A stretch of DNA of 64,000 nucleotides from Pristiophorus japonicus. Taxonomy: Eukaryota. Location: NCBI RefSeq assembly GCF_044704955.1, contig NC_091984.1, forward strand, positions 145,142,001-145,206,000. Direction: 5' to 3'. The notes under the pieces were generated by a model that was given only the letters and a program-made list of their open reading frames with translations, was not told the DNA's origin and made no database searches. Positions 9,500-64,000 of the stretch are shown here, piece by piece (position 1 is the stretch's first letter; each line of letters begins with the position of its first letter). Position numbers and translations under genes: made by a program.

Positions 9500-9765
9500 A
9501 AGAGCTAGTGTATTATTATATCCCACTCATTTCTGACATGGTTTGATACAGGTTGAACATAACTTCTCTGCTTTTGAATTCTAATCCGTTAGAAATGAAC
9601 TCCATTGTTTTATTTGCACTGTTATGGCCTTATTATCCTCCGTTGCTACTTTTAGTGATTTGTGTATCTGTACTCATAGATCCCTTTGCACCTCGACACC
9701 ATTTAGACTTATTTTCCAAGGGTCGGTAGGGTCCGTATCCCTCCTACCATTTTGCACCACCTCTC
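9500..9765 (-). mobile_element. CR1 LINE fragment
   Basis: Decayed match to the CR1 ORF2 C-terminal region seen at 19016-19300. Confidence 0.55.
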
Positions 9766-9769
9766 AGTA

Positions 9770-24871: not shown

Positions 24872-25852
24872 TCAATATCTTAATTCAACCAGTAAACAAC
24901 CTTCCCTTAAGCATAACATATCCCTGTGCCACGTACAGACGGTGGGACCTGCAAGGTGTCTCACATGTGGGACAGCAGCTACAGTCACTTGTTTGCAACA
25001 ACATTTAATCAACATAAACAAAAATATAAAAGTAAAATAATTACAACGACTAGAATTAAACCTTCCACCAATGAAGTTCCTATTGAACCTAGCCATTCAG
25101 TGGCTCCACTCCACAAAGTGAATGATGGGGGTTGCTTAAGTTTTTCTACCTCCTTTTGGATATGCTCCGCTAAGTGGGTAATTTCTTCGAAGCTATCAGG
25201 GATATACGTGCAACACTCAGTTCCGAGTAGGGCGCAAGTACCTCCCTTTTCAGCCAGGATGTAGTCAAGGGCCAGTCTATTCTGTAGGGCTACTGTGCGG
25301 ATTGCGATCATTTCTGCATTGATTTTAACTAAGGCCACTGAGGTATCATTGGCTACCCAGTTCCACAACGGTTGCCATGTTAATGGATTCCCTTGCCAGT
25401 TTGGCGGTCCCATACCTGGGGATCAGAATGGCAAAGAACTTCTCTGTTTCTGTGATAGCTCTCTTAGGATGGAGTAAATGTTCCGACAGTGACTCTATAT
25501 GATACATATATAGCACAATGTAGGCTAAATAGCAGGATCCCGTCCAATTCTGGGGCAGCCAAGGGTAGGCCTTGTGGCCACACACCCAATAGGTGCCATT
25601 ATAGGCAATGAAGGTTAGCTGTTTCTTTGTCAGCAACACTCCGGGACCTGTCCAGGCTTTTCCATCTGTTTTATTCAGAATCCCCGTTACGTTAAGAATT
25701 CCCACATCGGTCCAGTTTGGACGGTTCCGTGGCTTGATTATATTATAATTCCGGGAGCAGTTACTATTTCCCTTTGATGCAGAGGGTCGGCTAGTAAGAA
25801 GTAGGCCTATGCCTAGACTGCCTACAATCAGTAATACAGTAAATTTATACAT
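24872..25852 (-). pseudogene. env: ERV env, gamma-type TM, SU very short
   Basis: Signal peptide MYKFTVLLIVGSLGIGLLL; GTYWVCG..WTGSCYL; HPKR/AITE cleavage site; immunosuppressive domain LQNRLALDYILAEKGGTCALLGTECC; TM helix. Confidence 0.9.
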
Positions 25853-25876
25853 TTTGGCAAAAAGTAATTGTCCTTA

Positions 25877-28800: not shown

Positions 28801-29342
28801 ATAACAGGTAAGATTCCCGTGATGGCAGTTGGACTGATGGGATACTGTTTAGTGCATGGAGGCTTGGTCCTGGTAAATGACACAGGCTCCATCTGGAGTT
28901 GGCCACAATCGTTCTTATCTTTAGCCCATATCGGGTGTTCCTTCAATTCTTCTTTCTTCAAAGTTCTAATTGACCATGTCACCCGACCATCCTCGAAATG
29001 CAACGATGAATCTACTTGGATTAGAACGTCCATTCCCAAAAGGGGCTGATCTACTGGGCCTATCCAGACCGGCCTGGTTAGTTCATGTGGACCCAGCCCT
29101 ATAAGTACCGGTATTGTCCTTTTAATTTCCATTTTATGGCTCCCAACTCCTTAGACTGTACGTGCCCTACCATCCAACGACAAAAAGTCTCCATATTGTA
29201 GGGGTAAGCATGTTAATTCCGCCCCTGTGTCTAAAAGACAGTCCACATCCTTATCGCCCACCCTCACAGTTATATATAGCCCATCTCCCCTTTGTTGAAT
29301 TAGTGCGAGGAGGTGGACCAGGGTGGGCTCTAATCGTTTTTT
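25877..29342 (-). pseudogene. pol: ERV pro-pol (protease, RT, tether, RNase H, integrase)
   Basis: LLDTGA; IDMANGFWSVP; LPQGFHNSP; QYVDN (YVDD mutated); FTDGSS...SAQQAEL; HLQVDY, DSDQGTHFT; WEGPYQVLL. Confidence 0.93.
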
Positions 29343-30899
29343 GCTATCCCAAGTAACTCCTTCTGTTGTTGTATTGTCAGTCGCTTAAATGCTTCTATGA
29401 GGTCGGTATTTTGTGACAAGCCTGGTTTGTTGGCTGAATTGTATCCCTGGCTGTGTCCTCTTTCCCGGCCGCGACCTTGCTATTTTGCCCTGCACGTCTT
29501 GGCCCAGTGACCTTCTTTCCCACAATAATGACATTTTCCCGGTAATTTTCCTTATAAATATTTATCGGAATCCTGTGATTTCCATCCCATAGCCTGTACA
29601 GCTCGGACTTTAGCTCCCATATCCCGATCTAATTGGTTACATCGATCCACCAATGCTGCAAAGGTAGTTCCTCTACCTTCCCAGTCCGGTAACACTACCT
29701 TAAGCATTTTGGACAGTTCTGGCTTTTAACCTGCCACGAAAGCTGCTTTCAGGGGTCCAAACACTTGTTCATCCATTTCCTCATCCATATTATTCATACC
29801 CGAATGCCGAATGTTCTAGCCACGTGCATCTAAACCGCTCGGCAAACTCCAGGACCTCCTCTGTTCCTTTCTGTTGGCAGGCTGCAATTTTTTCCCAGTC
29901 TGTCTTAGCTGGACTGAAGGCTTGCAGCCAGTGTTTAATCGCCTCCCACCCTGTGTCTAATTCTTGCTCATCCTGCCCCAAAGCTTCTTCTATCTTGTCG
30001 TGCAATTTTCTTCCCTGTGTTTTTGGCACCATTATGGTCAAAATTTGCACTCCGTCCCAGGGATGACGTTGATATATATTTCTTAAGCGGTCCAATTGGT
30101 CCCACGTTTTTACTCCCCCTTTCTTTGGATTGGGCAATTCCTTGGACCTTTTATCAATTTTCTCTGGGTCTGCCGGATCATGAACTAAATATTCTGCATA
30201 CCCACTTTTCTTCGTTTTTTTGGTTCCGCCCTCATCCACAGTCTCTTCTGATTTGACTACAACTCGTCTTTTTTTAAATGGGGCAAAGCGCACCCCTAAT
30301 TCTTCATCCTCCGACCCTGTATCTTCGGAGGATTCAGAATTCGTATCAATTCCTTGGTCGTGTCTTCGGGTTTGCTCTTTTAATTTATCCAAACATGGGT
30401 ACCCTGGGAATTGACCGATACATTTTCCTTTTCCTATTACTGTCTCTTGACCGAATGATTTTTTCCATTCTTTAATTTCACCTTTAAGATCTTTAACTTC
30501 CGCTTCCGATTTTTCAAGTTCAAGTCTTGTCTGTCGCAGCTGTGCACAAACAGCTTGCAATTGGTCCTTTGTACTGGTCAGTTCATCATCATGTTGGGAA
30601 CGCATTATAATTTCATTCCGCTTTCGGATCTGTCCCATAACGGCTAGGGACCATCTAGTTTGCTCTTTATTTTTCATACGGGTCGTTTTCCCCCAGACCC
30701 TTTTAATCTCGTCCAAGGACCATTGTCCTTTGGAGGTACCGTATTTTTGTTCGATCTTAATATGGGTTTTAGATAAGTTGAATTGTTGCTCTATGTATTC
30801 TTTCAACTGTTGGAGGATTTCATCTTTCGAAACCTCAGATGGTGCCTGCCCGCCTTTAACAGTTGTAGGCAATTCTTTGCTCTTATCTCCTGCTGCCAT
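29330..30899 (-). pseudogene. gag: ERV gag
   Basis: 369-aa ORF with an MHR-like QQKGTEEVLEFAERF; zinc knuckle CHYCGKEGHWAKTC near 29490-29535; ends GCA AAA AAC GAT TAG. Confidence 0.88.
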
Positions 30900-32444
30900 A
30901 ATACTGATTTCTTTACTGGGGTCTCGAGTCGTAGGCTTTCCAGCCGATGTGTGGGTCGGTGATTAATTAACTAACACAACGCCGAAGTTAGATGTCTATG
31001 GGACCTCGAGCCGACTACCAACCGGAGGGTTCACAAACCGGAGGCTTTTGGAATCGCGTCGAAGGAGAGGCAAATTTAGACTTTTGACCGAGGACTTTTA
31101 TAAAGAGGCATCCTTACCTCAGTATGTCGGTCCGATGTCCAAAATTCAGTTTCTTCCCTCAGCGATCGTGTTCGTGATGCCAGAATTGTTTGATCTCTTA
31201 TTTCCCAATGAAATACGAACTCCGGTTGTCGTTTTAATGTAACTTTATTCTGGCACCAGCAACAAGCTTCTAGCCAAAATGGCTGTACTTATACCTGGTT
31301 CAATTTACAGAAAAAAACTCGCCTTCTTTGACCTTATTGGCTCAATTGATAGTCTTTTAACCTTTAATTGGCTCGCTACCCAAGGTCCTAAAATGTCAAG
31401 TTGATTGATGACTTAATGCAACATGCTGAGTTGCACGTAACAGCTTTGACTTGGGGTCTGTGAATTTTCACAAAACTGCAGTCAGGCTGCAGAGCTTGAA
31501 TTCTCTATCAGTTACCCTCACAGCTCGAAGGCTGCTTGCTGTGTCTTCGGCTGCCATTGAGTCACTGAGGCCGCCCCTGTCTCCAACATGGAAGGAAGGC
31601 CTGCCTGAAGCACCGCAGCTCGAAGGCTGCTGCTGCTTCACACAGGTGGGAATATTCAATATTTTGTATTTGCTTTGTTTATAATTTTTTATTCGGGCTG
31701 GCTCTTTATTTGTATAAGTAAGACTGTTGAATGCTTGTAGAATTTAATTACTTCCCTCCTTCCCCCCACCATTCCCTAAGCCTGATTTTTCACCTACGCC
31801 TGATTTCTAAAGTGTAGATAAGGTTGTTCTGAGCAGACAAAAATCTACACTTGCTCCATTCTAAGTTAGTTTGGAGTAAGTTTTCACTGCCTAAACTTTC
31901 AAAACAGGCGTAAGTGGCCACACATGCCCCCTTTTGGAAAAAAAAATCTGTTCCAAAATGAAACTGTTCCAACTCACTGGAACTGGAGCAAATTAAATGC
32001 CGAGAATTGCAATTTCTAAGATACTCCATTCTAAACCAGTTGCTCCAAAAAAAAGGAGCAACTCGAGTGGAAAGTTGACCCCTCAGTCTTTGAGTATATT
32101 CAAGACGGAGATCGATAGATTTTTCGATATTAAGAGAATCGAGGGATATGGGGATAGTGCAGGAAAGTGGAGTTGAGGTAGAAGATCAGCCATGATCTCA
32201 TTGAATGGCGGAGCAGGCTCGAGGGGCCGAATGGCCTACACCGGCTCGGGAGGGGCAGAGGGGATGGGAGGGGGAAGGAGGGGCTTGTGAGGTAGGGGGG
32301 CAGGGAGGTGGGGATGGAGTGGGGGCTGAGTTGGGATCGGGAGGCTGAGGGATGTGGTGTGAGGAGGGCGGGAGTGAGGGAGGGAGGCGGGGGAGTGGCT
32401 CGAGGTGGGGGTGGGGAGAATGGCTCGGTGGGGCGAGGGTAGAG

Positions 32445-32940: not shown

Positions 32941-35592
32941 AATGTAACGCCCCTATTTAAAAAAGGAGGGAGACAGAAAGCAGGAAACGATAGACCAGTT
33001 AGCCTAACATCTGTGGTTGGGAAAATGCTGGAGCCCATTATTAAGGAAGCAGTAGCAGGACATTTGGAAAAGCGTAGTTCAATCAAGCAGAGTCAGCACG
33101 GTTTTATGAAAGGGAAATCATGTTTGACAAATTTGCTGGAATTCTTTGAGGCTGTAACGAGCAGGGTGGATAAAGGGGAACCAGTGGATGTGGTGTATTT
33201 GGATTTCCAGAAGGCATTCGATACGGTGCCACATAAAAGGCACAAGATAAAAGTTCATGGAGTTGGGGGTAATATATTAGCATGGATAGAGAATTGGCTA
33301 ACTAACAGAAAACAGGGAGTTGGGATAAATGGGTCATTTTCCCATTGGAAACGGTAACTAGTGGAGTGCCGCATGGATCAGTGCTGGGCCTCATCGATTT
33401 ACAATCGACATTAATGACTTAGATGAAGGTGCCGAGTGTAATGTAGCCAAGTTTGCTGATGATACAAAGAAGGACGTTGAGCTATCCAACAAACACTATC
33501 ACACATTACACCAAACAAATGAAAAAGTAAGGGAGGAAATTGAGAAAGTGATAGCCCTTCCAAAATGTGATTTGGGATTCAATATTCAGATTCTCCCCTG
33601 GGTTCGAATTGTGTCTCATGCATTAGCCATTGTATAGTTGGTTATAGTGGTGTAACTATTTATTTTATCCTGTAAGTTAAAAGTGAATACAAAGAAAAGG
33701 AATCTTGAAGGGTTGTTAAGATGAACCAAAGCCAAAGTGTTTGGATATAAAACTGAAGTCAGATCAAGGCCGAATATTTTTGTTATAAAAGTGTTGGTTT
33801 GTCGGGAAAAAGTACTGCTTTTTTGATGTAAAAAAATAATTTTTGACTGAGACTGCAATACACCCAAAAAGAGCTCATGAAAAAAGAAGAATTCCACAAA
33901 TAATGTCTCTAGTTTTAAATGTACGAAACATTAAAGGAGGGAGTGTAAGATGACGAATCTTCAGAAAGCACAGAAGGAGACGATGAACTAAAGATTAATA
34001 CTAGCTTTTGGAATTTAATACAAGCTTTTGGAATGAAGCTGGATAATTAAGGACATTCTTGGTCAGGAACCAAAACTGACTTCATGCATAACAAGAATGG
34101 AGTTGTTACGTGAGGCCCTGAACTTGATTGACCAGGGTGGGGAAAACAAGCTCACTGGAGACACCAAACCTGTAAAAAGACTGGACAACAAAGGAACCAC
34201 ACTAGGTACACATTTTTTGAGACGAGGTGTTAAGATGAGAAATCAACTTGAGCCTTGCAGACTCAGTGTGCAACTGGGAAAACAGATGTGTCCATTATTG
34301 CAGTCAATCACCCAAGGGGACCACAATCAAATGTATCTATGTAAGCACTTTATCAGAAACTGCAGTGGCAGGACATCAGTCATAACCTGGATATAAATAT
34401 GCGAGCTAGAAGTAGCTCTGCAGAATACGGATGAAGGAAAGAAACAGACGGAAGAAGAAGCACACGTGTACAGATGGACACAGGTCGAAAGAATGAACAG
34501 ACAAACGGACGGAAGGATGTGGTGTAAACGGAGGGAACAGCACTGCAGAGAATGACCAGAAGCACAACCAACCGGGCACAGAACCAATGACCACAAACTT
34601 ACAATAGATACAGCCAGGGAGGGTGATTGTATGTCTTCAGTCAATTTCTAAGAATCAGAGTAGATTGAAAAACAATCACCCTATAATACAAAGATGGGTG
34701 GGAAAGCAAATTGTGAGGAGGACACAAATAGTTTGTAAAGGGATATAGACCAGCTAAGTGAATGGGCAAAAATTTGGCAGATAGAGTATAATGTGGGAAA
34801 ATGTGAGGCTTTGCACTTTGGCAGAAAGAATAGAAAAGAAAATTCATTTTCAAATGGAGAAAGATTGCAACCTGCTGCAGTACAGAGGGACCTTGTGCAT
34901 GAAACACAAAAAGTTAGTATGTGGGTAAAGCAATAATCAGGAAGGCAAATTGTATGTTGGCCTTTATTGCAAGGGGGATAGAGTATAAAAGCAGAGAAAT
35001 CCTGCTACAACTGTACAGGGTATTGGTGAGGCCACACCTGGAGTACTGCGTACAGTTTTGGTCACCATACTTAAGAAAGGATAGACCTGCATTGGAGGCA
35101 GTTCAGAGAAGGTTCACTAGGTTGATTCTGGAGATGAGGGGGTTGACTTATGAGGATAGGTTGAGTAGGTTAGGCCGATAATCATTGGAGTACAGAAGAA
35201 TGAGAGGTGATTTTATCGAAACATATCAGATAATGAAGGGGCGACAAGGTGGATGCAGTGAGGATATTTCCACTCAGAAGGGAAACTAGTACTAGGGGTC
35301 ATAGTCTCAGAATAAAGGGCCGTCCATTTAAAACTCAGTTGAGGAGGAATTTCTTCTCTCAGAGGCTTGTAAATCTGTGGAATTCTCTGCCCCAGAGAGC
35401 TGTGGAGGCTGGGTGATTGAATATATTTAAGGTCGAGATAAATTTTTGAGTGATAAGGAAATAAAGGGTTATGGGGAGCGGGCAGGGAAGTGGAGCTGAG
35501 TCCATGATCAGATCAGCCATGATCTTATTAAATCACGGAGCAGGCTCGAGGGGCCAGGTGGCCTACTCCTGCTCCAATTTCTTATGTTCTTA
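32941..35592 (+). mobile_element. CR1 LINE RT to 3' tail, split by a 1.2-kb insertion
   Basis: SQHGFMKGKSCLTNL; FADDTK|MGGK rejoins across 33470/34695; LYRVLVRPHLEYCVQFWSP; cttatgttct tail. Confidence 0.92.
33471..34685 (+). mobile_element. Fragment of a third long-LTR retroelement (env C-terminus, polypurine tract, partial LTR)
   Basis: KHYHTLHQ..EEIEKV..P..NIQILPWVRIVSHALAIV*LVIVV*LFILSC aligns with the env end at 10455-10640; aaaggagggag-TGTAAG at 33944; flanked by ATACAAAGA duplication. Confidence 0.65.
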
Positions 35593-36749: not shown

Positions 36750-37274
36750 GCCTTTTACAGATTCACATTTACAGAAACAAGAATTGAATAAACAGCCCAG
36801 CGAGAGCGAGCTGGAGACATTCGCAGGGAGAATGCAGCTTTATTAAAACAGTTATGGGGATTTTCTCCACACCATGAGAATCCTGTCCCTTTAAACGGGG
36901 ACAAAACCTTGAATTGTAACAGCAGGGTGAGCAGGGAGGAGGTCTGCTTACTGAAGCGGCACTTCACAGTTTAACATTAGTTTTACTCTGCTGACAGTCT
37001 TCAGCATCTATGAGAGGTTTGACTTGGCAGCACGAATCAACACGGTCCCATCAAACCCTCCCAGGGCAGGTACAGCACGGGTTAGATACAGAGTTCAGCT
37101 CCCTCGACACTGCCCTAATAACGTGCCTTACCCCCTGACCCTCAGATGCTTTCCCTGACCCAGTCCCGAGAAGGAAGAGAGTAGAAATGCAGTGCTGACA
37201 ATGACCTTTGCCCTCCCGCCTCACCCCCTGTTCTATTTAAAGTTGCGTCTCCCCCGCGGACTGTCCCTGACACA

Positions 37275-37600
37275 CTACGCACATTCTGCTCTCCTGATGC
37301 CCTTGCTGAGGGGAGAGGAGAGACTCTCGTGGGTGAGGCTGCAGGAGAAGCTGGCGTTGGACTCCCAGTCGGAGCCAGAGAGGGTCAGCAGGCTGCTGAC
37401 ACTGTAGGTGTTGTCCGAAGCTCGCAGGTAGTCGCTGGTCTGGACCCCGGCTGAAATGGTCGCTCCGTCCTTCTTCCACTCCACCTCCACCGCATCGGGG
37501 TAGAAGTGATCGGCGAGGCACCAGGGTGGCAGTGCCCTTGGTCGTGACCTCCTCCGGGAGGGGGGCAGCAGGGTCAGTGTGTGTGGTGTCTTCCCTCGGC
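37275..37600 (-). CDS. IGKC: Immunoglobulin light chain constant exon, shark kappa (NS4/type III); two compensating deletions, so possibly a pseudogene or assembly error
   Basis: Acceptor tccctttcAG at 37601-37602; TLTLLPPS / PEEVTTKGTATLV / CLADHFYPDAVEVEWKKDGATISAGVQTSDYLRASDNTYSVSSLLTLSGSDWESNASFSCSLTHESLSSPLSKGIRRAECA*; C1-set Cys/Trp and terminal Cys; resembles shark kappa C as I recall it. Confidence 0.92.
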
Positions 37601-41222: not shown

Positions 41223-43011
41223 GAAATCTCTGTGCAGAGCAAAGAGCCTGAGCACAGTCAGAGAACTGCGATGGAATAAGTCACTGTATTCCTGTAGAAC
41301 TGAGGTTACACAGTAGAATTTTAGAAGCAAATTATATCAGGTGATCTTAGGAGAATATAAATTGTGTCTATTTATTACGGGGGTGGGGGTGTTACCATGG
41401 ATACAGAAGTATAGTGGGAAATAATGTAGAATTTACCAACATCTCGCAAAATCCAGGTACCTTTCCCTGCAGAGGAGAAGAATCCCTTTCTGGACTTTTA
41501 AAATGAAAGGAAAACTTTGGGACACAAATGACTTTTAAAGGGGCAGACAAGGCCTGCAGGGGATAAAAGTGGGTGCATTCATGGAGACCCCCAACCCCCC
41601 GCAGTGTTTGGACTCATATGAAAGGGAATTTAATTTGGAACGATCTACCAGAAAGTTTGAAATCCTAAAGTGCACATGGAAGAAACTACGAACTTTAATC
41701 GAATTTGGGATTTTTAAAAGGTGTATGTTGGGTCTGCAAGAAAAGGGGCCAGTTTGGACATTGGAACTAATCAAATTGTCTGGGAACTGTATACCCTTGA
41801 AACTTGCCCCTTGAAAACATTAGCATTTAAACAATGCCACATACATATTCCAACACCAATTCAACAGGCATAGAAATATCTGGCTCAGGCCAGACTAGCA
41901 CAATGGAGAGCTCATCAACTTCGAAAAGCCTATTAACGCCAGATTAAAATCACTTAATCAAGTTTCAGTTAGCTGGGCTAGATTTGATGGGAGATAACGG
42001 AGTCTTTTTTTGTGGGTATATCTATTCCCAGTTTTACCAAGGAACAGACTCGAACAGCAGAACACAGACTCAAACACAGACAGACACAAGCAGCCGGAAG
42101 TGGGGAGTGAAGAAATGGAATAGTGAAGGAAACTACCAGAAATCATCAAGGACCGACCGAGCACGAGGCCCATGAAATGGAAGGTTGTCAGCAACCAAAT
42201 TGACAACCCGGGCCACCACAACCAGCGAAACGACCAACCAAAACCAACTCAGCAAAAACCGAAGAATCGACATTTATTTCCACTCTACAATCTACTTCGG
42301 AATGACCAACGGGTGAGAAATTACCAAAAGGGACTAACTAAACTATTCCTAACCAAAGAAAGTGGGTACTTACCCCATACATCCAAAACGCAACTTACCG
42401 CATCAACGGACGCACCCCAACCGAAGACTACGCAGTCCGAAGTCCTCTCCTCCGACCGGGGTACGGCTCACCTAGAAGGCCAAGTGCAGCGAACCCCAAA
42501 ACCGCGATTCACTGGCAACTGTCTAAAGAGATTGGTGAGCATGGCCCCTGAACCCACAGAGCTATAACTTAGTAGTTAGGGGAATTGGGGGAGGGAGGCT
42601 GGGATAACTTGTGTAAATGTATCTGCATTCGCCTCTTTACCCCATTTAGAGTTTAAGCTGTATTCTTTTCCGCACAGACTATAATTGGACAGTTTATTCA
42701 ATTTGTTGTACCCCTCAGTGTGTATTAGTCTGTGTGAGTTATTAAAGGGTTGCCTTTTACTTCTTTTTAAACACAATAAAGCCATACCTGCTTCCTATCT
42801 TGAAACCGATTGTCTGTCCAAGTCTGTCACAGTCCCTTCATAATTCCAGTGTCTAGAACCAAGGGTGTGGGAGCGATTCGGAACCGTTCATATAAGGTCA
42901 GAAGGGAAAGCTGACCCCCTGCAAACCACCCCTTACATAATGGCGACCTCGATGGGGCACTGGTACAAGGGACATGATAAGAGAGAGACTGGTTTCAGGA
43001 AACGAAGCAAA

Positions 43012-44772
43012 ATGGAAGAGGGGATTTCCTCGTATGTGTTTAAGAGGGTAAATGTGGCTAAGGAGTGGGTACTCGATCTATTGTATGCTGAGCATCCAGA
43101 AGATGCTGCAGCTCAATGGACCGAGAGCAAGGACCATAAAAGGTCGAAAGAGAAGGCCATTTGGCTAATTTGCCTTCAGCAACAGATCCGGCTTCTAGAT
43201 GAGGAGAATGAGAAATTAAAGGGAGTACTGAAACAGGCAGAAGAGAGGTCCAGCGCAAGGGCCACAGTTGGGGAAAGGCTGTGGACAGAGGTGGGACAGT
43301 TAAAGGAAAGTAGAGACCTCACTAAAGAAAGGCACAAAACCCAACTGGACCTTTTACAGTGTCAGATTATTGAAGCCAAGAATAGCGAACTGGCATTGCG
43401 GGAAGAGAATTCCTGCCTCGCCAAGCAAGTTAAAGAGTACGGGGAGAGGGTGAGAGACATTCAGGTAGCCTATAAGGTAGCCAGTGCCAGGGAATTTGAG
43501 GCAGGAGACCACGGCCCCTGCCAGCAGCAGATCCAAAGCTTGAACCTTGCTCTATCCCGGGCTAAATGCATGGTGTGCCTGATAAACCCGGGTTTAGCCC
43601 AGGAACACCTGGTTGGGCAAGGAGAAACCCCTCAGTCACTGCCTGCAGCTCCCAGGAATGGCCCTGGGCAGCAGGGGTGTCAGCCAGAGTGCGGGGCAGG
43701 CAAGGATTGCAAACTACCAACACCAGCAGCCCCGAGTTTTAACTCGGCTTGGCAGCAGGGGGAAGAGGGCGAGCCAATACAAGAAGGGCCGGAACCAGGG
43801 CCAATGCACCCGGTCCGGCAGCAGAAGTTTGGCCCGCCTGATGCCAATGGGGCAGCAGGACCCCTAGAAAGCAACTTCGTAGTCCCCCACGACATCCAAA
43901 AACTGAGGGCTATGATAGGCCACCTAAGTAAGCTCACCCAACAGGGGGATCCCTCGGTACACTTCCTGGAAGTGGAACACACAGGGAATATTAACGGGTG
44001 CGATGATTCAGAGCAGGCTAAGTTGTTGCTCTTCTCACTAGACACCAAGCTGTGCCATTCCCTCTCTGCAGACAGAAGAAAGGGGCGAAACACGTACGCT
44101 ACAGTTAAGGAGGAGCTTCTAGAGGCCATGGGTATGAACGACGGGAATCCTTTCTCCCGATTGGAGAAAACAGTGCAGCTCTATGGGGAGACTCCACAGG
44201 CTTTCGCCGACAGGTTGTTGCCGGTCTACGAAAGGGCCTGTAGTGGGGTTCTTGACCGGGCCCACCTGAACCCTAACGAGCTGGCTCACTGGCTCCGCAG
44301 CCTGGTGGCAAACAGCTTACCTGGAGTAAAGGCAAAAGCCTAGGTCTGGTTCGATCCAAGAGATCCCAGAACCACCGAGGAGACAGTGGTCAGGCAGTTG
44401 ATCCTGGCTTACCGGAACAGTAGAGGGACAGAGGAGCCCTCCTCTAAAGGGAGGGTCCATGAGATTAAACCCAGCCAAGGCAAGAGAGAGTGGCATCAGG
44501 AAGGTGGGAACCCTCCCCACAAAGGGGGCGAGTGTTTTGGGTGTGGGAAAAGTGGGCACTGGAGGAAGGATTGTAGGAACCCCTGGAAAGGGACTAAGGG
44601 AAAGGCCACTCCAGCTCCAGCCCGTAAGGCCGGGGCAGGAACACCCGACACATATGAGACACTCGTAGCCACCCTACAGACACTCATAAACAGACAGGGA
44701 GCAGTAGCTATCGCAACTGGTCCAGCAGACGGTACGGTAAAACCCTCTTCTCCAACCCACCCAGATGCATGA
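43012..44772 (+). pseudogene. gag: gag (coiled-coil N-terminus, CCHC knuckle), one internal TAG
   Basis: ORFs 42865-44343 and 44386-44772 are in the same frame; CFGCGKSGHWRKDC. Confidence 0.88.
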
Positions 44773-47700
44773 CTAAGGCCAGTGCAGCCTGTGTACCTGT
44801 GTTCCCTAGAGTACGATGCCTGGAAGAGACCGTGCGTTACGATGGAGGTGGAGAAAGTGAAAGGGACCTACCTGCTAGATACCAGTGCTTCCAGCACCCT
44901 TGTATATGCAGATAACCCAGCTACCTCACCTCTATCGAACGGGGTCCCGTACAGTCTAGTGGGGTTCACAGGCAATGAGCAAACTGGTTCGTTTTCCATC
45001 CTGCTCACCATTCAGTTAGGGACACTCAAAACCAAATGGAAGTGTGTCCTGATGAAATGGCAGCACAAGGGAAAAGGGATCCTGGGAGCTGATTTTATCA
45101 TTGGCCACCAGATCCTAGTGGATCTCAGGAACCACTGTCTATGGGGAGCCATAGTGACTGACAGAGAAGGTGAGGTGGCGGTGATCCCAGAAAAAGGGGC
45201 CAAGGGAACATTGTGTACCGTGAAGCCAAAGGAGGGTTATGACTTGGAATTACTGGTCAGTAACACCCCAGTGGAGTACCAGGCATATGTACGGGCACAA
45301 CTTGCAGCATTTGCCACCCACAAACATGACTGTGGTAGGGTAACGGGGGTGGAAGTTAGTATAGTAGGGGACCCCATTACCCGACCACAAAAGCAATATA
45401 AATTCCCCAGGGAGGCAGAGGCAGACCTGACAACGGCGCTGGGATCACTGGGAGAGCAAGGGGTGTTAAAACCGATAGCAACCCATGTGAACTCTCTACT
45501 GTGGCCGGTTAAGAAACCGGACAACTCGTGGAGGGCCACCGTGGACTATCGAGTACTAAATAAGAATATCCCTGCCTGTGCACCCACTGTAGCAGCCGTA
45601 GCGGATCTCATAGGGAGTATTCCAGCATCTGCGACCACTTTCACAGTGCTGGACATTTCAAATGGGTTCTGGTCCATTCCTTTAAAACGGGAGGACCAGT
45701 ACAAGTTCGCCTTTACCTTTAAGGGCCAACAATACACGTGGAACTGTCTTCCCCAAGGCTTCCACAACAGCCCCAGCATTTTTCACCAATGCATGGCGAA
45801 CTGTTTAAAGGGCTTTAGCAGACCCCAGCAGTTGGTGCAGTATGTGGATGACCTGCTCCTGTTCACCGATCAGGGGGAGGAGCATGGTCCACTGCTGGCT
45901 GAGCTGCTGGAGCTGCTAAAAGAAGAAGGGTTTAAAGTAAACCCCAACAAGGCACAGATCGGTCAGAAGGAAGTCAAATTCCTGGGGCTGACTGTGCGCG
46001 CTGGGGAAAGGGCCATAGACAAGGCTAGAAGGGAGGCAGTACAGGAGTTACCAGCCCCCAACACAGTGACAGGGGTAAGGTCCTTTCTCGGACTCACCGG
46101 GTACTGAAGAGACTTCATTGAGGATTATGCAGCCACCGCAGCCCCTCTGCTCAGGCTCCTACACAAGGGTGCAGAGTGGGACTGGGATGAGGGTTGCGAG
46201 GCAGCATTTAATCAGCTCAAGAAGGACTTGCAGACCGCGCCAGCCTTAGGAGCGATAGATGTAGGAAAGGAGTTTTTCCTGGAGGTGGCAGCCAGCGGGG
46301 ACAGTTTGAGCTCAGTGCTGCTTCAAGAGCGGCATGGCCAGCTGAAACCAGTGGTTTACTCCTCCAGGATCCTCACAGATGTGGAGAAGGGGTACTCCAA
46401 CTGTGAGAGACAACTCCTAGCCACACATTGGGCAGTGAAAAGATCCTTGATCTTCACGGGAGGGTCTCCTCTAACACTCCTAACCCACCACACACCTACT
46501 CAGATGCTCCTAGATGGGAGGATTAAGGATGGGACGGTGAGCAGTGCCAGCATTGCTCGCTGGACCCTGCTCCTCTCCCAGATGGACCTCAGAGTAGAAG
46601 GCCTCCGTGAGCCAAGGCTCGCAGCCAACCTAATCGACCCAGGGAAAGCCCACAGGTGCTCCATAGAAGGGGTATGGGAGGTGAGCATTGGCCTTCAGGC
46701 GGGGTTACGCCCTGCAGGCCGGGACATCGACATGGACGGGTCCAGCAAAGTATCTGCTGGCGAACGACTCACTGGGTGCGGAGTCTATGACCCAAGGACA
46801 GGTATTGCCCTGGCAATCAAGCTCCCCAGCACCATGAGCGCCCAGCATGCTGAACTGTCCGCCGTAATGTACGTCGTGACCCACCCCGAGGAATTCCCTA
46901 CCTCGTACACGATTTGCTCGGACAGTATGTTCACCTGCAATTCATGTACGGAGTACCTGGCTATCTGGTCCCGTCGCGGATACACGTCCGCTGATGGGAG
47001 ACCCCTGGCAATCAAGCCCCTGCTGGAGAAAATCATGACAGCGGTGGGGGAAGAGGGAAAGGTCTACATACATAAGGTGAAGGCCCATTCAAAAACCGAA
47101 CCCCGTGCAGAGGGAAACCAACAGGCTGACAAACTGGCCAAAGAAGGTGCCCGCACGGGAAAGTTCTGGGACCCCTATGACACCGGCCGCATAGCAGCGG
47201 TCAAGAATAAGAACAGGGCAGCAGAGAGTACAGGGGATAGCCTTGGCCCCGGACTTAAAAACAGTTCAGGCACAGGACCCGGTCTGAAAGCTGTCCTGAA
47301 TGCGCTAGCTAGAGGAGAGAGAGTAGAAGGTCCGTACGGCACAGCAGCCATTAGTTAAGGAAGGCATGCTGTTTAAAGAGGGACAATGGGTCGTGCCACA
47401 GCAGCACCAGAGGGAATTCCTAAAACTGGCCCATGAGGGTCCAGGAGCGGGACACCCCGGGCCTGAGACCACCTGGCAACGTGTGGAACAGGCAGGATGG
47501 TGGCTGGGACTCAGGGAGGATGTCCGCGAGTTCTGTGCGAACTGCCTGGTGTGTGCTGCGAACAACCCTGACCCCCAGAAAAGGAAGGTGTCCCTAGGAC
47601 ACGTCAGGAGGGTAGAGGGACCATGGCAGTCAATCCAAATTGACTGCATCGGGCCCCTACCCACTACCCAGGGAGGCTACAAATACTGCCTAGTCCTGGT

Positions 47701-48946
47701 GGACGTGTTCTCAAAATGGGTTGAAGCCTTCCCCTGCTGAACAGCCACCGCACTAGGGACAGCTAAGATTCTAGTGAGGGAAGTGTTCTCCCGGTGGGAA
47801 CTCCCACAGTATGTGGAGTCGGACCAGGGGAGCCATTTCACCGGGCAGGTAATGCAGGCAACCCTTGAGGTGCTCGGCATTGACGGGAAATGGCACGTTG
47901 CCCACAATCCACAGTCATCCGGTATTGTGGAACGTTTAAACCGCACCATTAAAGAAAGGCTGCGGAAGGAAACGGGAGACTCACCCCAAAAGTGAGTAGA
48001 GGTCTTACCGTTGGTCCTAATGGGGAGCCGAGCCAGCCAGTCAAAGAGCACGGGGTATTCCCCATACGAGCTCATGACTGGCTCGATCATGCTGACCCCC
48101 ACCCATGTCCTAGCCCCGGTGCTCACAGAAAGTCAGCTCAGAGAGGTGAACCGGGACCGGTTTGTCAGGAACCTGTTTGAACACCTCAAATAGATTCACT
48201 GGCAGGCTGCTAGTAACATGGGCAGACAGCATCAGAGTAACCGATTGCTGCTAGAACCCAGCAAACACCACGAATGGGAGATAGGGGACCAGGTCATGGT
48301 GAGGAACTATGCTCGGGTCGGGGTTTTTGAAACATTATATATAGGGCCATACAGCATTGTGGACAAGGCAAGCCCGATGGTCTATGCCATAAAGCTGCCC
48401 CGCCGTACTAAGTGGTTCCACATCAACCAGTGCAAGCTGTACAACCCAGGGTCAGCCAACCACAGAGGACAGCCGGGAGGGATGAACCATCCTCAGGACA
48501 GGGACCCTCCGTTGGCCGCCCCCGACAGTGGAGGGCCCACAGGGAATGTGGCAGGCTCAGAAACCGTGCCTATAGGGGCGGTGAATTGCAGTACTGGAGG
48601 GGCTATCCCACCCATCGTTTGGGATTCGGACGCACCCTCAGTAACCCAAGCCCTGAGAAGGACACTCCATACACCACGGCCAAAGATACCGTGGTCACCG
48701 GCAACTGAGCCTCAGCGATTCTACCCTCGGAGAAGGGCAGCCCGACAGGAAAAACCGAAGGTCAGAAGTACAGAGGCCGCTCAGAGTCGGGACCACCAGC
48801 CAGCCGCCTCCAGCGGTGAGGGTCTCATAGGAGCAGTAGCAATGAGCTTTCCCAGAGACAAGGGTTTCCAGCTCACCGGCTGCGGGGAAACCCTAGCACC
48901 CAGGCGGCTATCAGGTCGCACAAGGCATGGGCCTGACAGGGACTAA
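44773..48946 (+). pseudogene. pol: pol: protease, RT, degenerate RNase H/tether, second RNase H, integrase
   Basis: LLDTSAS; LDISNGFWSIP; LPQGFHNSP; YVDD; KPVVYSSRIL..YSNCERQLLA; DGSS..SAQHAEL..SDS..KVKAH..GNQQAD; [28 protein letters not shown]. Confidence 0.93.
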
Positions 48947-51699
48947 CCAGGCCACCTGGAGACCGGTGATGGTTGTACATAGCTCTAATTTTAGTTTAAG
49001 GCAGCTGACTGCAACATTTTACATTTTAAGGTTTAGTTTAGAATTGAAGTTAATGTTGCAGTAATGTTAAGGTGATTATTTTGAGTTTGTCTTGTGTGTC
49101 AGCCAGCCTGAGAGCAGTTCTCAAGGGCAGGATCTAGACATTACCGGGTGATGGACAAACCTCAGGAGACCAATTGATGTTGTTTAGTTTTAATCTATGT
49201 TTTCTTTCCTGCTGTAATGTGGTTGTACATTGCCTATATGCTGGTGAATATAATGTAACTGAAATGAAATGTAACTGTGCTGAAATGCAATTGTAGTAAT
49301 TGAACCCCCTCCAAGCTGGGAGGGTATAAATGTAAAAAGTTTTTACCTGTAAAGGGAAAAGTGTGCATCTATGGTGATGTTGCATAAGTGTAATGCATTT
49401 TGGCTGTTAGTTTAGCTAATTTACGGGGAAGGTTATCTCTTGGGAGTCAGGAACTTTGCTCACCTCGAAGGATGATACCATAAGTGATATGGTATCACAG
49501 GGGGGAATGTAGAATTTACCAATATCTTGCAAAGATTCCAGGTACCTTTCTCCTGCAGAGGAGAAGAATCACTTTCTGGACTTTTTAAATGAAAGGAAAA
49601 CTTTGGGACACAAATTAATTTTAAAGGGGCAGACGAGGCCTGCAGGGGATAAAAGGGGATGCATTCATGGAGACCACCCCCCCAGTGTTTGGACTCATAG
49701 GAAAGGGAATTTAATTTGGAACTATCTACCAGAAAGTTTGAAATCCTAAAGTGCACATGGAAGAAACTACGAACTTTAATCGAATTTGGGATTTTTAAAA
49801 GGTGTATGTTGGGTCTGCAAAAAAGGGGTGGAGTCAATATCTAAAGGGCCAGTTTGGACATTGGAACTAATCAAATTGTCTGGGAACTGTATACCCTCGA
49901 AACTTGCCCCTTGAAAACATTAGCATTTAAACAATGCCACATACATATTCCAACACCTTTTCAACAGGCATGGAAATATCTGGCTCAGGCCAGACTAGCA
50001 CAATGGAGAGCTCATCAACTTCGAAAAGACTATTAACGCCAGATTAAAACCACTTAATCAAGTTTCAGTTAGCTGGGCTAGATTTGATGGGAGATAACGG
50101 AGCCTTTTTTTGTGGGTATATCTATTCCCAGTTTTACCAAGGAACAGACTCGAACAGCAGAACACAGACTCAAACATAGACAGACACAAGCAGCCGGAAG
50201 TGGGGAGTGAAGAAATGGAGTAGTGAAGGAAACTACAAGAAATCATCAAGGACCGACTGAGCACGAGGCCCACGAAATGGAAGATTGTCAGCAACCAAAT
50301 TGACAACCCGGGCCACCACAACTAGCAAAACGACCAACCAAAACCAACTCAGCAAAAACCGAAGAATCGACATTTATTTCCACTCTACAATCTACTTAGG
50401 AATGGCCAACGGGTGAGAAATTACCAAAAGGGACTAACTAAACTATTCCTAACCAAAGAAAGTGGGTACTTACCCCATACATCCAAAACGCAACTTACCG
50501 CATCAACGGACGCACCCCAACCGAAGACTACACAGTCCGAAGTCCTCTCCTCCGACCGGGGTACGGCTCACCTAGAAGGCCAAGTGCAGCGAACCCCGAA
50601 ACCGCGATTCACCGGCAACTGTCGAAAGGGATTGGTGAGCATGGCCCCTGAACCCACAGAGCTATAACTTAGTTAGTTAGGGGAATTGGGGGAGGGAGGC
50701 TGGGATAACTTGTGTAAATGTATCTGCATTCGCCTCTTTACCCCATTTAGAGTTTAAGCTGTATTCTTTTCCTCACAGACTGTAATTGGACAATTTATTC
50801 AATGTGTTGTACCCCTCAGTGTGTATTGGTCTGTGTGTGTTATTAAAGGTGTGCCTTTTACTTATTTTTAAGCACAATAAAGCCATACCTGCTTCCTACC
50901 TTGAAACCGATTGTCTGTCCAAGTCTGTCACAGTCCCTTCATAATTCCAGTGTCTAGTACCAAGGGTGTGGGAGCGATTCGGAACCGCTCATATAAGGTC
51001 AGAAGGGAAAGCTGACCCCCTGAAAACCACCCCTTACATAACAGATAAAAGGATGAGGACCCCTGAATTGGGGACAATAGATGGGGAATCCCGTCTAGTT
51101 GCCCTTGAGAAGGTGGGGATGGGGCCACTTCTTCAAACGCTGCAGTCCACCTGGTGAATGTACCCACAGTGCTGCGCTCGGCAGCATCTTTCAGTATCGT
51201 GACCCCTTGACGGTGCCAGCAAATATCAGCGGGTAATATTTTGCAATGTTGCTGATCTTTTGCAATGAGCAAAACCTGTCAATAATTTATTGATCGAAAG
51301 TCGGCAGCATGATAAACATTTCGAAATCAAGTCATCCCAAACCATTATTCGTCAAACCACCAATGTATTCAACAATTCGAGCAGTGTTTCAGTGAGTTAT
51401 TAATTTCCTGCCCGCCCTACTTAAACAGAGTTATATTTTAAACTGTGGTGACACTTCATTAACAATTCATTTGGTTATAAAATGACTGCGAACAAGGCCA
51501 CGTGTTTCTATTTTCCAGGGTTGTGCAAGGATCGAGACTCAGAAATCAAATGTCCAACATTCATCGAATCTAAGCACCAATGTTATCAGCTCAAAATAAA
51601 AATAATACCATTGCTACTTTACTTTAATGTGTATATTTGATCCACTTTCCATCCCGTCTGTCTCAGGATTGACTGCTCGTGCAATGTTCCGAATATTCA

Positions 51700-60492: not shown

Positions 60493-63400
60493 CAGATCCT
60501 TACTGAAAAGCCACACTCTACCTCATCCTGCTGTGCCAATCCTCACATCCCCATCACTCTACCTTCCCTAATCCTGCACTTCCTTACTCACACCAACTTA
60601 GCTTGCACCTCCACTCATCCCCTCTCTCTATCTCCATTATCACATCCCTTTCTCACCAGCCACCCCTCGCACTCACCCTCACCTCGTCCAATCATACCAA
60701 CTAAGCACACAAGGGTAGGCACTTGGCTCTTTTAGCCAAATAGTAAATCTTTATTTTTAACATGTTGCCTTCTTGGACAGTGGAAGTGTCTCAGTGAGTT
60801 GCAGTGATTAGCGAGACATAACATTACTCCCGCAATGGTGCTGAGTGTGAAAGGAATGATTTGTGCATTGTAGGGGTACTGTATGGTGCTGTTGTGGGGT
60901 GGTGCCAAACTGGTGCATCATGTGGCAGCCACAGTGCACAGTGTGAAGGGAAGTAAATGTGGCCACGGTGAGGGTATCCCTGGCCTCCCGGGCAGCAATG
61001 TCTTCAGGTGCTGATGCCCCGTGTCCTGTGCAGCATCAGGTGATTACGGAGAATGTTGATGCTGTGGTTGGTGCTGCTGGTATGTCTGGTGATGCTGGTG
61101 TGTCTGGTGATGTTGATGTGCCGGGTGATGCTGGTGTGTCTGGTGATGCTGGTGTGTCTAGTGATGCTGGTGTGTCTGGTGATGATGGTGTGTCTGGTGC
61201 TGCTGGTGTGCCTGGTGATGCTGGTGTGTCTGGTGCTGCTGGTGTGTCTGGTGATGCTGGTGTGTCTGGTGATGCTGGTGTGTCTGGTGATGCTGGTGTG
61301 TTGGGTGCTGCTGGTGTGTCTGGTGCTGCGGGTGTGCCGGGTGATGCTGGTGTGCAAGGTGATGCTGGTGTGCCTGGTGCTGCTGGTGTGTCCGGTGATG
61401 CTGGTGTGCCGGGTGATGCTGGTGTGTCTGGTGATGCTGGTGTGTCCGGTGATGCTGGTGTGTCTGGTGATGCTGGTGTGCCGGGTGATGCTGGTGTGTC
61501 TGGTCATGCTGATGTGCCGGCTAATGCTGGTGTGCCTGGTGATGCTGGTGTGTCTGGTGATGCTGATGTGTCCGGTGATGCTGGTGTGTCTGGTGATGCT
61601 GGTGTGCCGGGTGATGCTGGTGTGCCGGGTGATGCTGGTGTGCCTGGTGATGCTGGTGTGTCTGGTGATACTGGTGTGGCTGGTGATGCTGGTGTGTCTG
61701 GTGCTGCTGGTGTGCTTGGTGCTGCTGGTGTGTCTGTTGATGCTGGTGTGTCTGGTGCTGCTGGTGTGTCTGGTGATGCTGGTGTGTCTGGTGCTGCTGG
61801 TGTGCCTGGTGATGCTGGTGTGCCGGGTGATGCTGGTGTGCCTGGTGATGCTGGTGTGCCGGGTGATGCTGGTGTGTCTGGTGATGCTGGTGTGTCTGGT
61901 GATGCTGGTGTGTCTGGTGATGCTGGTATGTCTGGTGATGCTGGTGTGCCGGGTGATGCTGGTGTGTCTGGTGATGCTGGTGTGCCAGGTGCTGCAGGTG
62001 TGTCTGGTGATGCTGGTGTGTCTGGTGATGCTGGTGTGTCTGGTGATGCTCGTGTGTCTGGTGATGCTGGTGTGCCGGGTGATGCTGGTGTGTCTGGTGA
62101 TGCTGGTGTGTCTGGTGATGCTGGTGTGCCGGGTGATGCTGGTGTGTCTGGTGATGCTGGTGTGCCAGGTGCTGCTGGTGTGCCTGGTGATGCTGGTGTG
62201 TCTGGTGATGCTGGTGTGTCTGGTGATGCTGGTGTGTCTGGTGATGCTGGTGTGTCTGGTGATGCTGGTGTTCCGGGTGATGCTGGTGTGTCTGGTGCTG
62301 CTGGTGTGCCGGGTGATGCTGGTGTGCCAGGTGCTGCTGGTGTGCCGGGTGCTGCTGGTGTGCCTGGTGATGCTGGTGTGTCTGGTGATGCTGGTGTGTC
62401 TGGTGATGCTGGTGTGCCTGGTGCTGCTGGTGTGTCTGGTGATGCTGGTGTGCCGGGTGATGCTGGTGTGTCTGGTGCTGCTGGTGTGCCGGGTGATGCT
62501 GGTGTGCCGGGTGCTGCTGGTGTGTCTGGTGATGCTGGTGTGTCTGGTGATGCTGGTGTGCCTGGTGATGCTGGTGTGTCTGCTGATGCTGGTGTGTCTG
62601 GTGCTGCTGGTGTGCCGGGTGATGCTGGTGTGTCTGGTGCTGCTGGTGTGTCTGGTGATGCTGGTGTTTCTGGTGATGCTGGTGTGTCTGGTGATGTTGG
62701 TGTGCCTGGTGCTGCTGGTGTGTCTGGTGATGCTGGTGTGTCTGGTGATGCTGGTGTGTCTGGTGCTGCTGGTGTGTCTGGTGCTGCTGGTGTGTCTGGT
62801 GATGCTGGTGTGTCTGGTGATGCTGGTGTGCCAGGTGCTGCTGGTGTGTCTGGTGATGCTGGTGTGCCGGGTGCTGCTGGTGTGTCTGGTGATACTGGTG
62901 TGTCTGGTGATGTTGGTGTGCCGGGTGATGCTGGTGTGTCTGGTGATGCTGGTGTGTCTGGTGATGCTGGTGTGTCTGGTGATGCTGGTGTGCCTGGTGA
63001 TGCTGGTGTGCCGGGTGCTGCTGGTGTGTCTGATGATGCTGGTGTATCTGGTGATGCTGGTGTGTCTGGTGATGCTGGTGTGCCGGGTGATGCTGGTGTG
63101 TCTGGTGATGCTGGTGTGCCTGGTGCTGCTGGTGTGTGTGGTGATGCTGGTGTGTCTGGCGATGCTGGTGTGCCAGGTGCTGCTGGTGTGTCTGGTGATG
63201 CTGGTGTGTCTGGTGATGGTGGTGTGCCAGGTGATGCTGGTGTGTCTGGTGATGCTGGTGTGTCTGGTGATGCTTGTGTGCCGGGTGCTGCTGGTTTGTC
63301 TGGTGCTGCTGGTGTGTCTGGTGATGCTGATGTGCCTGGTGCTGCTGGTGTGTCTGGTGATGCTGGTGTGTCTGGTGATGGTGGTGTGCCAGGTGATGCT

Positions 63401-64000
63401 GGTGTGTCTGGTGCTGCTGGTGTGTCTGGTGATGCTGGTGTGTCTGGTGATGCTGGTGTGCCGGGTGCTGCTGGTGTGTCTGGTGATGCTGGTGTGCCGG
63501 GTGCTGCTGGTGTGTCTGGTGATGCTGGTGTGTCTGGTGATGCTGGTGTGTCTGGTGATGCTGGTGTGCCGGGTGCTGCTGGTGTGTCTGGTGATGCTGG
63601 TGTATCTGGTGATGCTGGTGTGCCAGGTGCTGCTGGTGTGTCTGGTGATGCTGGTGTGCCTGGTGATGCTGGTGTGCCGGGTGATGCTGGTGTGTTTGGT
63701 GATGCTGGTGTGTCTGGTGATGCTGGTTTGTCTGGTGATGCTGCTGAGCCTGGTGCTGCTGGTGTGTCTGGTGATGCTGGTGTGTCTGATGACGCTGGTG
63801 TGTCTGGTGATGCTGCTGTGCCTGGTGCTGCTGGTGTGCCCGGTGATGCTGGTGTGTCTGGTGATGCTGGTGTGTCTGGTGATGCTGGTGTGCCTGGTGA
63901 TGCTGGTGTGTCTGGTGATGCTGGTGTGTCTGGTGATGCTGGTGTGTCTGGTGATGCTGGTGTGTCTGGTGCTGCTGGTGTGTCTGGTGATGCTGGTGTG
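60493..64000. mobile_element. Continuation of the Harbinger-derived element, with a minus-strand transposase C-terminal relic
   Basis: Minus strand 60950-61000 reads IAAREARDTLTVATF, similar to the transposase end IARALRHQLIRERF at 22690-22740; TTTATT at 60750. Confidence 0.45.
61070..64000. repeat. 18-bp (2 x 9) satellite GGTGATGCTGGTGTG[TCT/CCG/CCT], over 160 copies, running off the window
   Basis: Direct repetition; phase is the same at 61070 and 63968 (161 x 18 bp). Confidence 0.98.

What the first reader, a model, noticed from the sequence alone, without database searches (positions are those of the whole stretch)
41425..51038. Retrovirus-like provirus with dual RNase H, 1.5-kb LTRs and no env
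Seen: RT with LPQGFHNSP/YVDD, a degenerate Gypsy-like RNase H followed by a second retroviral-type RNase H, integrase with GPY, a CCHC gag, an Arg-like PBS and only about 560 bp between pol and the 3' LTR. Established: tether plus RNase H is typical of retroviruses and lokiretroviruses, not of ordinary vertebrate Gypsy elements such as the one at 56-60 kb; foamy virus Gag lacks CCHC. Inference: an env-deleted member of a loki-like lineage, young enough (similar LTRs, few stops) to reconstruct.
Basis: partly seen in the sequence, partly recalled or inferred. Interest (0 to 1): 0.7.

Follow-up and report, generated by a model that had tools for sequence, protein, structure and literature searches.

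The report
Envelope-less snakehead-like endogenous retrovirus family
This is one broken copy of an endogenous retrovirus family, likely from a cartilaginous fish, in which copies lacking the envelope gene through one shared deletion outnumber envelope-bearing copies about ten to one, likely because they spread by copying inside germ cells; it groups with ordinary retroviruses near snakehead retrovirus, not with lokiretroviruses.

Summary
The anatomy is real: LTRs of 1513/1531 nt (96.8% alike), a tRNA-Arg primer site, a CCHC gag, pol with tether plus second RNase H and a GPY integrase, and 561 nt from pol to the 3' LTR with no env. 'Env-deleted' is confirmed directly. Copies of the same family (about 90% nt) carry a ~2.3-kb env segment at window 49130|49131, and env-minus junctions outnumber env-plus 91:9 among the first 100 of 623 exact matches. 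'Loki-like' is not supported. RT and RT+tether+IN trees put it inside canonical retroviruses (support 94-100), with amphibian and coelacanth relatives near SnRV. AU tests reject window+Loki (p=0.018 RT; 0.0003 concatenated). Tether and integrase score better against Loki than SnRV, likely through slow evolution; on integrase alone, Loki is not rejected (p=0.07). 'Young' is doubtful: five premature stops, a frameshift, and LTR distance 0.033 (7-74 Myr by published rates). A sister family (87% RT) in the same genome has env and LTRs 99.4-99.9% alike. Verdict: new member of a known kind (class III / SnRV-like ERVs of cartilaginous fish), with a clean env-loss record and an unclassified, non-gamma Env.

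The parts
41425..42937 (+). 5' LTR, 1513 nt, TG...CA; AATAAA at 42775
42941..42958 (+). primer binding site for tRNA-Arg(CCG), 15 of 18 nt matching in this copy
42940..44772 (+). gag: ATG overlapping the primer site, coiled-coil N-half, likely capsid region, one CCHC knuckle (44533); premature stop at 44341; ends in TGA in frame with pol
44770..44775 (+). gag-pol junction TGA-CTA, likely a readthrough site; TGA in 20 of 20 copies where the junction was found (21 examined)
44773..46107 (+). protease and reverse transcriptase (YVDD at 45841); premature stop at 46105
46108..46600 (+). tether: degenerate Gypsy-type RNase H
46690..47180 (+). second, retroviral-type RNase H
47327..48946 (+). integrase (HHCC, core, GPY at 48344) and low-complexity tail; in another frame than RT-RNase H; premature stops at 47738, 47993, 48191
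49130..49131 (+). env deletion junction: about 2.3 kb holding env lies here in env-plus copies of the family
49499..49507 (+). polypurine tract
49508..51038 (+). 3' LTR, 1531 nt

Best explanation
This is a decayed proviral copy of an endogenous retrovirus that sits inside canonical retroviruses beside SnRV-like (class III, clade Huo) elements and lost env by one shared ~2.3-kb deletion, after which it likely multiplied by retrotransposition in germ cells to outnumber its env-bearing parent about ten to one. Shown: anatomy, deletion point, env-plus copies of the same family, hundreds of dispersed copies with 4-bp target duplications, and exclusion from Loki. Inferred: tRNA-Arg-primed reverse transcription; Gag-Pol made by readthrough of UGA-CUA; an intracellular copying route; a cartilaginous-fish host. 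This copy cannot move itself. It was later carried along in duplications of an immunoglobulin light-chain cluster.
For: RT tree of 105 rows: Loki 100/100 outside a canonical clade 100/94 that holds the window, which groups with frog and coelacanth Pols (98/86) and with SnRV (94/90). The reduced RT tree gives 99/94 and AU p=0.018. Concatenated trees give 100/99 and, with the mixture model, 100/97; AU p=0.0003. SnRV identity of P0040 is shown by the 10,688-nt record L068 (length as) and the published RT row. SnRV shares a coiled-coil gag with one CCHC and an in-frame gag-pol stop. Env-plus copies: L070 (92% nt) and 10 of 10 further loci carry env after the left junction; the lost segment measures 2284-2346 nt in the 5 of those 10 where both ends were found. 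The env-minus junction was found in 50 of 59 family loci. There are 623 exact junction matches, 91 env-minus and 9 env-plus among the 100 listed, and 1505 exact LTR-end matches. LTR distance: env-minus 0.017-0.064, median 0.031, n=10; env-plus 0.037, 0.063, 0.066, n=3.
Against: The position within canonical retroviruses is unstable: a clade with SnRV on RT (94/90, open in the reduced tree), but a basal grade in concatenated trees, although the grade-plus-SnRV clade is not rejected (p=0.09). Integrase alone does not reject window+Loki (p=0.07). My trees held no class II viruses, no Odin elements and no CmiERV lineage I, and only 2-6 Loki rows. The intracellular route is not shown: env-minus genomes could have been carried by Env from env-plus relatives, and copy ratio alone cannot tell the two apart. 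The env-plus age sample is only three copies. Readthrough and gag start are untested.
Confidence: 0.78

Rival explanations
1. Env-deleted lokiretrovirus, or a vertebrate Odin-like element.
For: Dual RNase H; tether and integrase score higher to Loki proteins than to SnRV, foamy or class I; the integrase resembles the published Loki/Odin rows by eye; integrase-only AU does not reject (p=0.07).
Against: RT signature and identity (46% to SnRV, 36-40% to Loki); four RT-containing trees; AU p=0.018 and 0.0003. Loki forms its own clade without the window in the tether, RNase H and integrase trees. The family's env has no PF00523 match. The published screen found Loki in 0 of 3 chondrichthyan genomes. 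Odin never had a visible env, whereas this family has env-plus copies.
Confidence: 0.04
2. A recombinant: SnRV-clade RT joined to a Loki-derived tether and integrase.
For: Discordant best scores by domain; the Loki paper reports frequent domain replacement among retroviruses.
Against: Tether and integrase trees do not join the window to Loki. They leave both in a basal polytomy with short branches, while SnRV, foamy and ERV-L-like rows have long branches. The same pattern holds for all frog, coelacanth and bird relatives, which slow evolution explains without a swap.
Confidence: 0.08
3. Same classification, but the env-minus form spread as a defective passenger, packaged and transmitted by Env from env-plus relatives, not by copying inside the cell.
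For: Env-plus copies of the same family and a very young env-bearing sister family exist in this genome; age ranges overlap.
Against: Env-minus copies keep full-length gag-pol and a gag-pol junction that is TGA in 20 of 20 copies found. They are about ten times more numerous and include younger insertions (0.017) than the three env-plus ones dated. Env-less ERVs are reported to proliferate more easily (passage, which also reports exceptions in anamniotes).
Confidence: 0.1

Closest known systems
Snakehead retrovirus (SnRV) and SnRV-like / clade Huo ERVs, including CmiERV lineage I of elephant shark
   Same: RT signature and 46% RT identity; coiled-coil gag with one CCHC; gag and pol in frame across one stop; tether plus RNase H; weak Env similarity around the furin site (19% over 268 aa, E 4e-4). 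SnRV-clustering ERVs are published for elephant shark, and clade III ERVs dominate in chondrichthyans (2843 RT hits in 6 genomes).
   Different: UGA-CUA rather than UAG-GGC at the junction; 1.5-kb LTRs; gag ATG overlapping the primer site; no 3' accessory ORF seen; much less diverged tether and integrase; env deleted in most copies. CmiERV lineage I was not compared directly.
Frog and coelacanth Pol proteins named 'NYNRIN-like' or 'Gypsy integrase-like' in databases (P0003, P0005, P0007, P0008, P0009)
   Same: Closest named relatives: 51-55% RT, 40-42% integrase, same domain order; same RT clade (98/86).
   Different: Automatic names only; their proviral structure and env could not be fetched here.
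Lokiretroviruses and Odin retrotransposons
   Same: Tether plus second RNase H; similar integrase; Odin lacks env.
   Different: Different RT signature; separate clade in every tree; Loki Env matches PF00523, this family's Env does not; Odin is known from sea anemones only.
ERV-L / ERV3 and ERV4
   Same: Class III neighbourhood; ERV-L is an env-less family that amplified.
   Different: ERV3 and ERV4 are listed with 5-bp target duplication, no zinc finger and no GPY; this family has 4 bp, CCHC and GPY, and no dUTPase hit.

Membership tests
Retroviridae (canonical) | RT groups inside the canonical retrovirus clade | tested here: met
   100/94, 99/94, 100/99, 100/97; class II viruses not sampled
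Retroviridae (canonical) | tether plus second RNase H, PR-RT-RH-IN order | tested here: met
Retroviridae (canonical) | env gene in the lineage | tested here: met
   absent from this copy, present in family copies and in a sister family; Env role inferred from position, signal-like start, furin site and C-terminal hydrophobic stretch
SnRV-like clade / clade Huo (class III) | RT clusters with SnRV | tested here: inconclusive
   94/90, open, basal grade, clade not rejected p=0.09
SnRV-like clade / clade Huo (class III) | CCHC gag, in-frame gag-pol stop, GPY (seen in some SnRV-related ERVs) | tested here: met
Lokiretroviruses | RT monophyletic with Loki, sister to canonical retroviruses | tested here: not met
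   AU p=0.018 and 0.0003; RT motif differs
Lokiretroviruses | dual RNase H | tested here: met
   shared by all retroviruses, so not diagnostic
Lokiretroviruses | Env matching PF00523 fusion glycoprotein | tested here: not met
   no PF00523 hit for family Env; genome search blank but without positive control
Lokiretroviruses | integrase grouping with Loki/CGIN1 | tested here: inconclusive
   basal polytomy; AU p=0.07; no CGIN1 row available
Odin retrotransposons | no env in the lineage; RT sister to Loki | tested here: not met
   env-plus copies; RT motif differs from published Odin rows; no Odin row in my trees
Spumaretrovirinae / foamy-like ERVs | gag without CCHC, pol in a separate frame, RT with foamy viruses | tested here: not met
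   CCHC and in-frame junction; the two foamy rows form their own clade
ERV3 (ERV-L) / ERV4 | 5-bp target duplication, no zinc finger, no GPY | tested here: not met
   4-bp duplication, CCHC, GPY (table)
Ty3/Gypsy (Metaviridae) | single active RNase H, RT among Gypsy elements | tested here: not met

The most novel reading that the evidence does not exclude
The element belongs to a slow-evolving, poorly described basal grade of canonical retroviruses (cartilaginous fish, frogs, coelacanth, birds) that keeps the ancestral Loki/Odin-type tether and integrase and carries an Ig-tipped, paramyxovirus-F-like Env homologous to both SnRV and Loki Env. Integrase and env would then be inherited from the Loki-retrovirus ancestor, not gained separately as proposed, and the near-identical-LTR sister family would mark a recent or ongoing infection of a cartilaginous fish by such a virus.
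Probability: 0.25. Interest if true: 0.72.

Novelty: new member of a known kind. Interest (0 to 1): 0.38.

Why it matters
It corrects the label: this is not the first chondrichthyan lokiretrovirus. What remains useful is a clean record of env loss in an early-branching jawed vertebrate: one deletion point, parent and derivative both present, about 1:10 in number, and datable by LTRs. The same genome holds a very young env-bearing sister family whose Env is not gamma-type and has no Pfam or PDB match. If the basal-grade placement and Env homology hold, these elements bear on whether env and integrase were gained once or several times in retrovirus history. The gag start overlapping the primer site is a small, unusual design feature.

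Tried and rejected
Structure prediction gave no usable model for Gag (mean pLDDT 40, 2 sequences) or Env (pLDDT 36, 1 sequence), so no fold search was run. The capsid and F-like assignments stay inferred. The protein atlas held neither query. An Env profile of 7 rows found nothing significant in PDB or Pfam. Genome searches with PF00523 (no positive control) and with SnRV Env were blank; the second missed a real Env family, which shows how weak these blanks are. PF00429 env hits belong to another, class I-side family (about 38% RT identity). My first env count, 30 of 30 env-minus, was biased: most env-plus copies read differently at the polypurine tract. It was replaced by the junction count. 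Env loss by splicing was considered and rejected: the lost segment does not begin GT or end AG. The '18,499 candidates' is not a copy number. Sequencing runs: no RNA holder listed; contigs of a second organism label cover the pol end and the stretch to the 3' LTR in two adjacent pieces, a weak hint only. The bacterial promoter scan is irrelevant. Earlier findings of the scan: none returned. PMC9447858 passages gave nothing on NYNRIN's viral relatives.
Full report
1. Observation. The LTRs are 41425-42937 (1513 nt) and 49508-51038 (1531 nt), 96.8% identical, K2P 0.033. Pfam finds zf-CCHC, RVT_1, the Gypsy-type RNase H-like families, then RNase_H (E 7e-20), then integrase zinc finger, core and an SH3-like end. 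The best solved-structure matches are MLV RT for tether plus RNase H and foamy, then MLV, RT ahead of Ty3 for the polymerase. The primer site pairs with a host tRNA-Arg(CCG) gene. The copy is broken: five premature stops and a frame change between RNase H and integrase. LTR distance gives 7.4, 33 or 74 Myr with the rates used in PMC7947760, PMC10699275 and PMC4422223, so 'young' depends on a rate nobody has measured for this host.

2. Host and setting. The host is likely a cartilaginous fish (inference): the only Gag homologue found is from a skate (39% over 97%), a sawshark-labelled protein holds a 72% integrase piece, the genome is 5.9 Gb, and the insertion lies 4 kb from an Ig C1-set exon in a repeated segment. 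The same insertion with the same flanks recurs at several places on contig C8. Those are segmental duplicates, not new insertions.

3. Family. Twenty top RNase H hits were fetched (20 of 150 scored). They are 92-99% identical over the internal region and use several LTR types. Of 12 independent insertions with both ends, 9 have a perfect 4-bp target duplication, 2 have one mismatch, and the window's is imperfect. Exact patterns give floors of 1505 LTR ends and 623 deletion-junction sites. Gag and pol are in frame across TGA in 20 of 20 copies where the junction was found, of 21 examined. The next codon is CTA in 17 of 19 loci scored, the context listed for alphavirus readthrough in PMC13517186. 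Readthrough itself is inferred.

4. Env loss is secondary. A longer-spaced LTR pair proved to be a copy of the same family (92% nt) with an extra segment at window 49130|49131 that encodes an Env-like protein. A search with that segment returned 40 scored matches at 92% or more. Ten were fetched, all carry env after the same left junction, and the segment is 2284-2346 nt in the 5 where both ends were found. The env-minus junction was found in 50 of 59 family loci. The 9 misses include the env-plus copy (2 loci), loci that do not reach the site, and mismatched ones. Among the 100 listed of 623 junction matches, 91 are env-minus and 9 env-plus. One deletion at the base of the expansion is the simple reading. 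The ends are not splice sites, and there is at most one base of overlap, so an RT jump is likely. An earlier 30-of-30 count was biased and is set aside.

5. Sister family and its Env. Searching with a coelacanth relative found a second family: RT 86-87% aa to the window, LTR pairs 99.4-99.9% identical, env-length coding region in 10 of 10 loci. The Env has a signal-like start, a weak Ig match, an RQRR site, about 400 residues from there to a C-terminal hydrophobic stretch, and no CX6CC. It has no significant Pfam or PDB match and a weak match to SnRV Env around the cleavage site (E 4e-4). By eye, its layout before and after the cleavage site resembles a published Loki Env. That resemblance was not computed and is only a lead.

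6. Phylogeny. References came from database hits labelled against the published RT alignment. P0040 is SnRV (99% to the 10,688-nt record). P0151 is feline foamy virus and P0089 WEHV-1. P0065, P0124 and P0079 carry the Loki signature, P0079 matching Loki-Aro. Of 198 proteins with an RT hit, 43 partial ones were dropped. Gypsy-like rows were thinned from 43 to 11 and redundant rows removed, leaving 105. That tree has Loki outside (100/100) and canonical retroviruses 100/94. The window sits in a 13-row clade with frog and coelacanth Pols (98/86), inside a 25-row group with SnRV and ERV-L-like rows (94/90). A 48-row tree keeps the window canonical (99/94) but leaves the SnRV link open; AU rejects window+Loki, p=0.018. 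Against this, tether and integrase score better to Loki than to SnRV. Single-domain trees show why: the window, its relatives and Loki have short branches in a basal polytomy, while SnRV, foamy and ERV-L-like rows are long. Integrase alone cannot reject window+Loki (p=0.07). Concatenated RT+tether+integrase trees (43 and 22 rows) again exclude Loki (100/99; 100/97; AU p=0.0003) but draw the window's relatives as a basal grade; a clade with SnRV is not rejected (p=0.09). No class II, Odin, CGIN1 or CmiERV rows were available.

7. How it works. Shown: the parts and their order, the deletion, the copy ratio, target duplications. From established retrovirology: tRNA-primed reverse transcription, PPT-primed plus strand, integrase-made duplication. 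Inferred: readthrough for Gag-Pol; gag starting at an ATG that overlaps the primer site; and spread of the env-minus form by copying inside germ cells. Carriage by helper Env remains the main rival for the route.

8. What is known. SnRV-clustering ERVs are published for elephant shark (PMC4422223, part 1 of 2 read). Clade Huo spans all vertebrate groups (PMC6001957, passages). Clade III ERVs are the majority in chondrichthyans (PMC11089739, passages). SnRV-related ERVs with CCHC and GPY are noted as unclassified (PMC4299795, passages). Loki was found in 0 of 3 chondrichthyan genomes (PMC7947760, parts 1-3 of 4, supplement searches and part 12 of 54; the supplement is held cut). Odin: PMC9040795, parts 1-2 of 4, alignment file 2 (2 of 3 parts) and file 6 (1 of 4). 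Passages only: PMC12440569, PMC12193657, PMC8278194, PMC4977317, PMC9447858, PMC13517186, bioRxiv 2024.03.25.586437 and 2021.11.23.469661 (their supplements were not seen and may list this lineage). PMC10699275: parts 1-2 of 4. PMC11468914 (foamy Env linked to paramyxo/pneumovirus F): search listing only. The 1996 SnRV paper was not held. Searches listed no paper describing this family, but Repbase and subscription journals were not searched.

9. Verdict. A real, well-formed but decayed provirus: a new member of a known kind. The loki claim fails; the env-deletion claim holds and is now documented. Interest 0.38, for the env-plus/env-minus pair, the young sister family and an open question about the deep position of this slow-evolving lineage.

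Noticed in passing
window 42938-42945 and family loci: The base before the primer site is A in all 37 junctions scored (spacers TAA, CA, GATAA, GAACA), creating an ATG that overlaps the primer site and opens the gag frame (full gag-length frame in 9 of 10 sister and 2 of 27 own-family junctions). The skate homologue P0317 is annotated with the same start. Actual use is untested.
   Followed up: partly
loci L087-L106 (own genome): Env-bearing sister family: RT 86-87% aa, 77% nt, LTR pairs 99.4-99.9% alike, Arg primer site, TGA-CTA junction, env-length coding region after pol in 10 of 10 loci; at least 137 env matches at 94% or more.
   Followed up: partly
window 37266-37520, minus strand: Immunoglobulin C1-set exon (E 6e-19), likely a light-chain constant region. 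The provirus with the same flanks recurs at several places within about 4.3 Mb of contig C8, so it was duplicated with the cluster.
   Followed up: partly
window 9724-10682 and 33470-33718: Fragments of the same Env type (52-60% and 39% aa to the sister Env), outside the element.
   Followed up: no
window about 25000-31000, minus strand: A second, decayed retrovirus with tether, RNase H and a TLV_coat env, likely of the class I-side family.
   Followed up: partly
window 22691-23353, minus strand: Harbinger-type DDE_Tnp_4 transposase fragment.
   Followed up: no
   Followed up: partly
window about 60900-64000 and 3300-5200: Long minisatellite arrays (18-nt unit at the window's end).
   Followed up: no
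proteins P0073, P0209-P0223: Conserved bird 'NYNRIN-like' Pol proteins with an altered RT motif branch near the base of canonical retroviruses; possibly a domesticated pol. Not checked against the literature.
   Followed up: no
protein P0003 C-terminus; SnRV env start in L068: A frog relative ends in a hydrophobic stretch plus an Ig-like sequence by eye, and the sister Env has a weak Ig_3 match (E 0.001-0.02): an N-terminal Ig domain may be a shared Env feature of the lineage.
   Followed up: no
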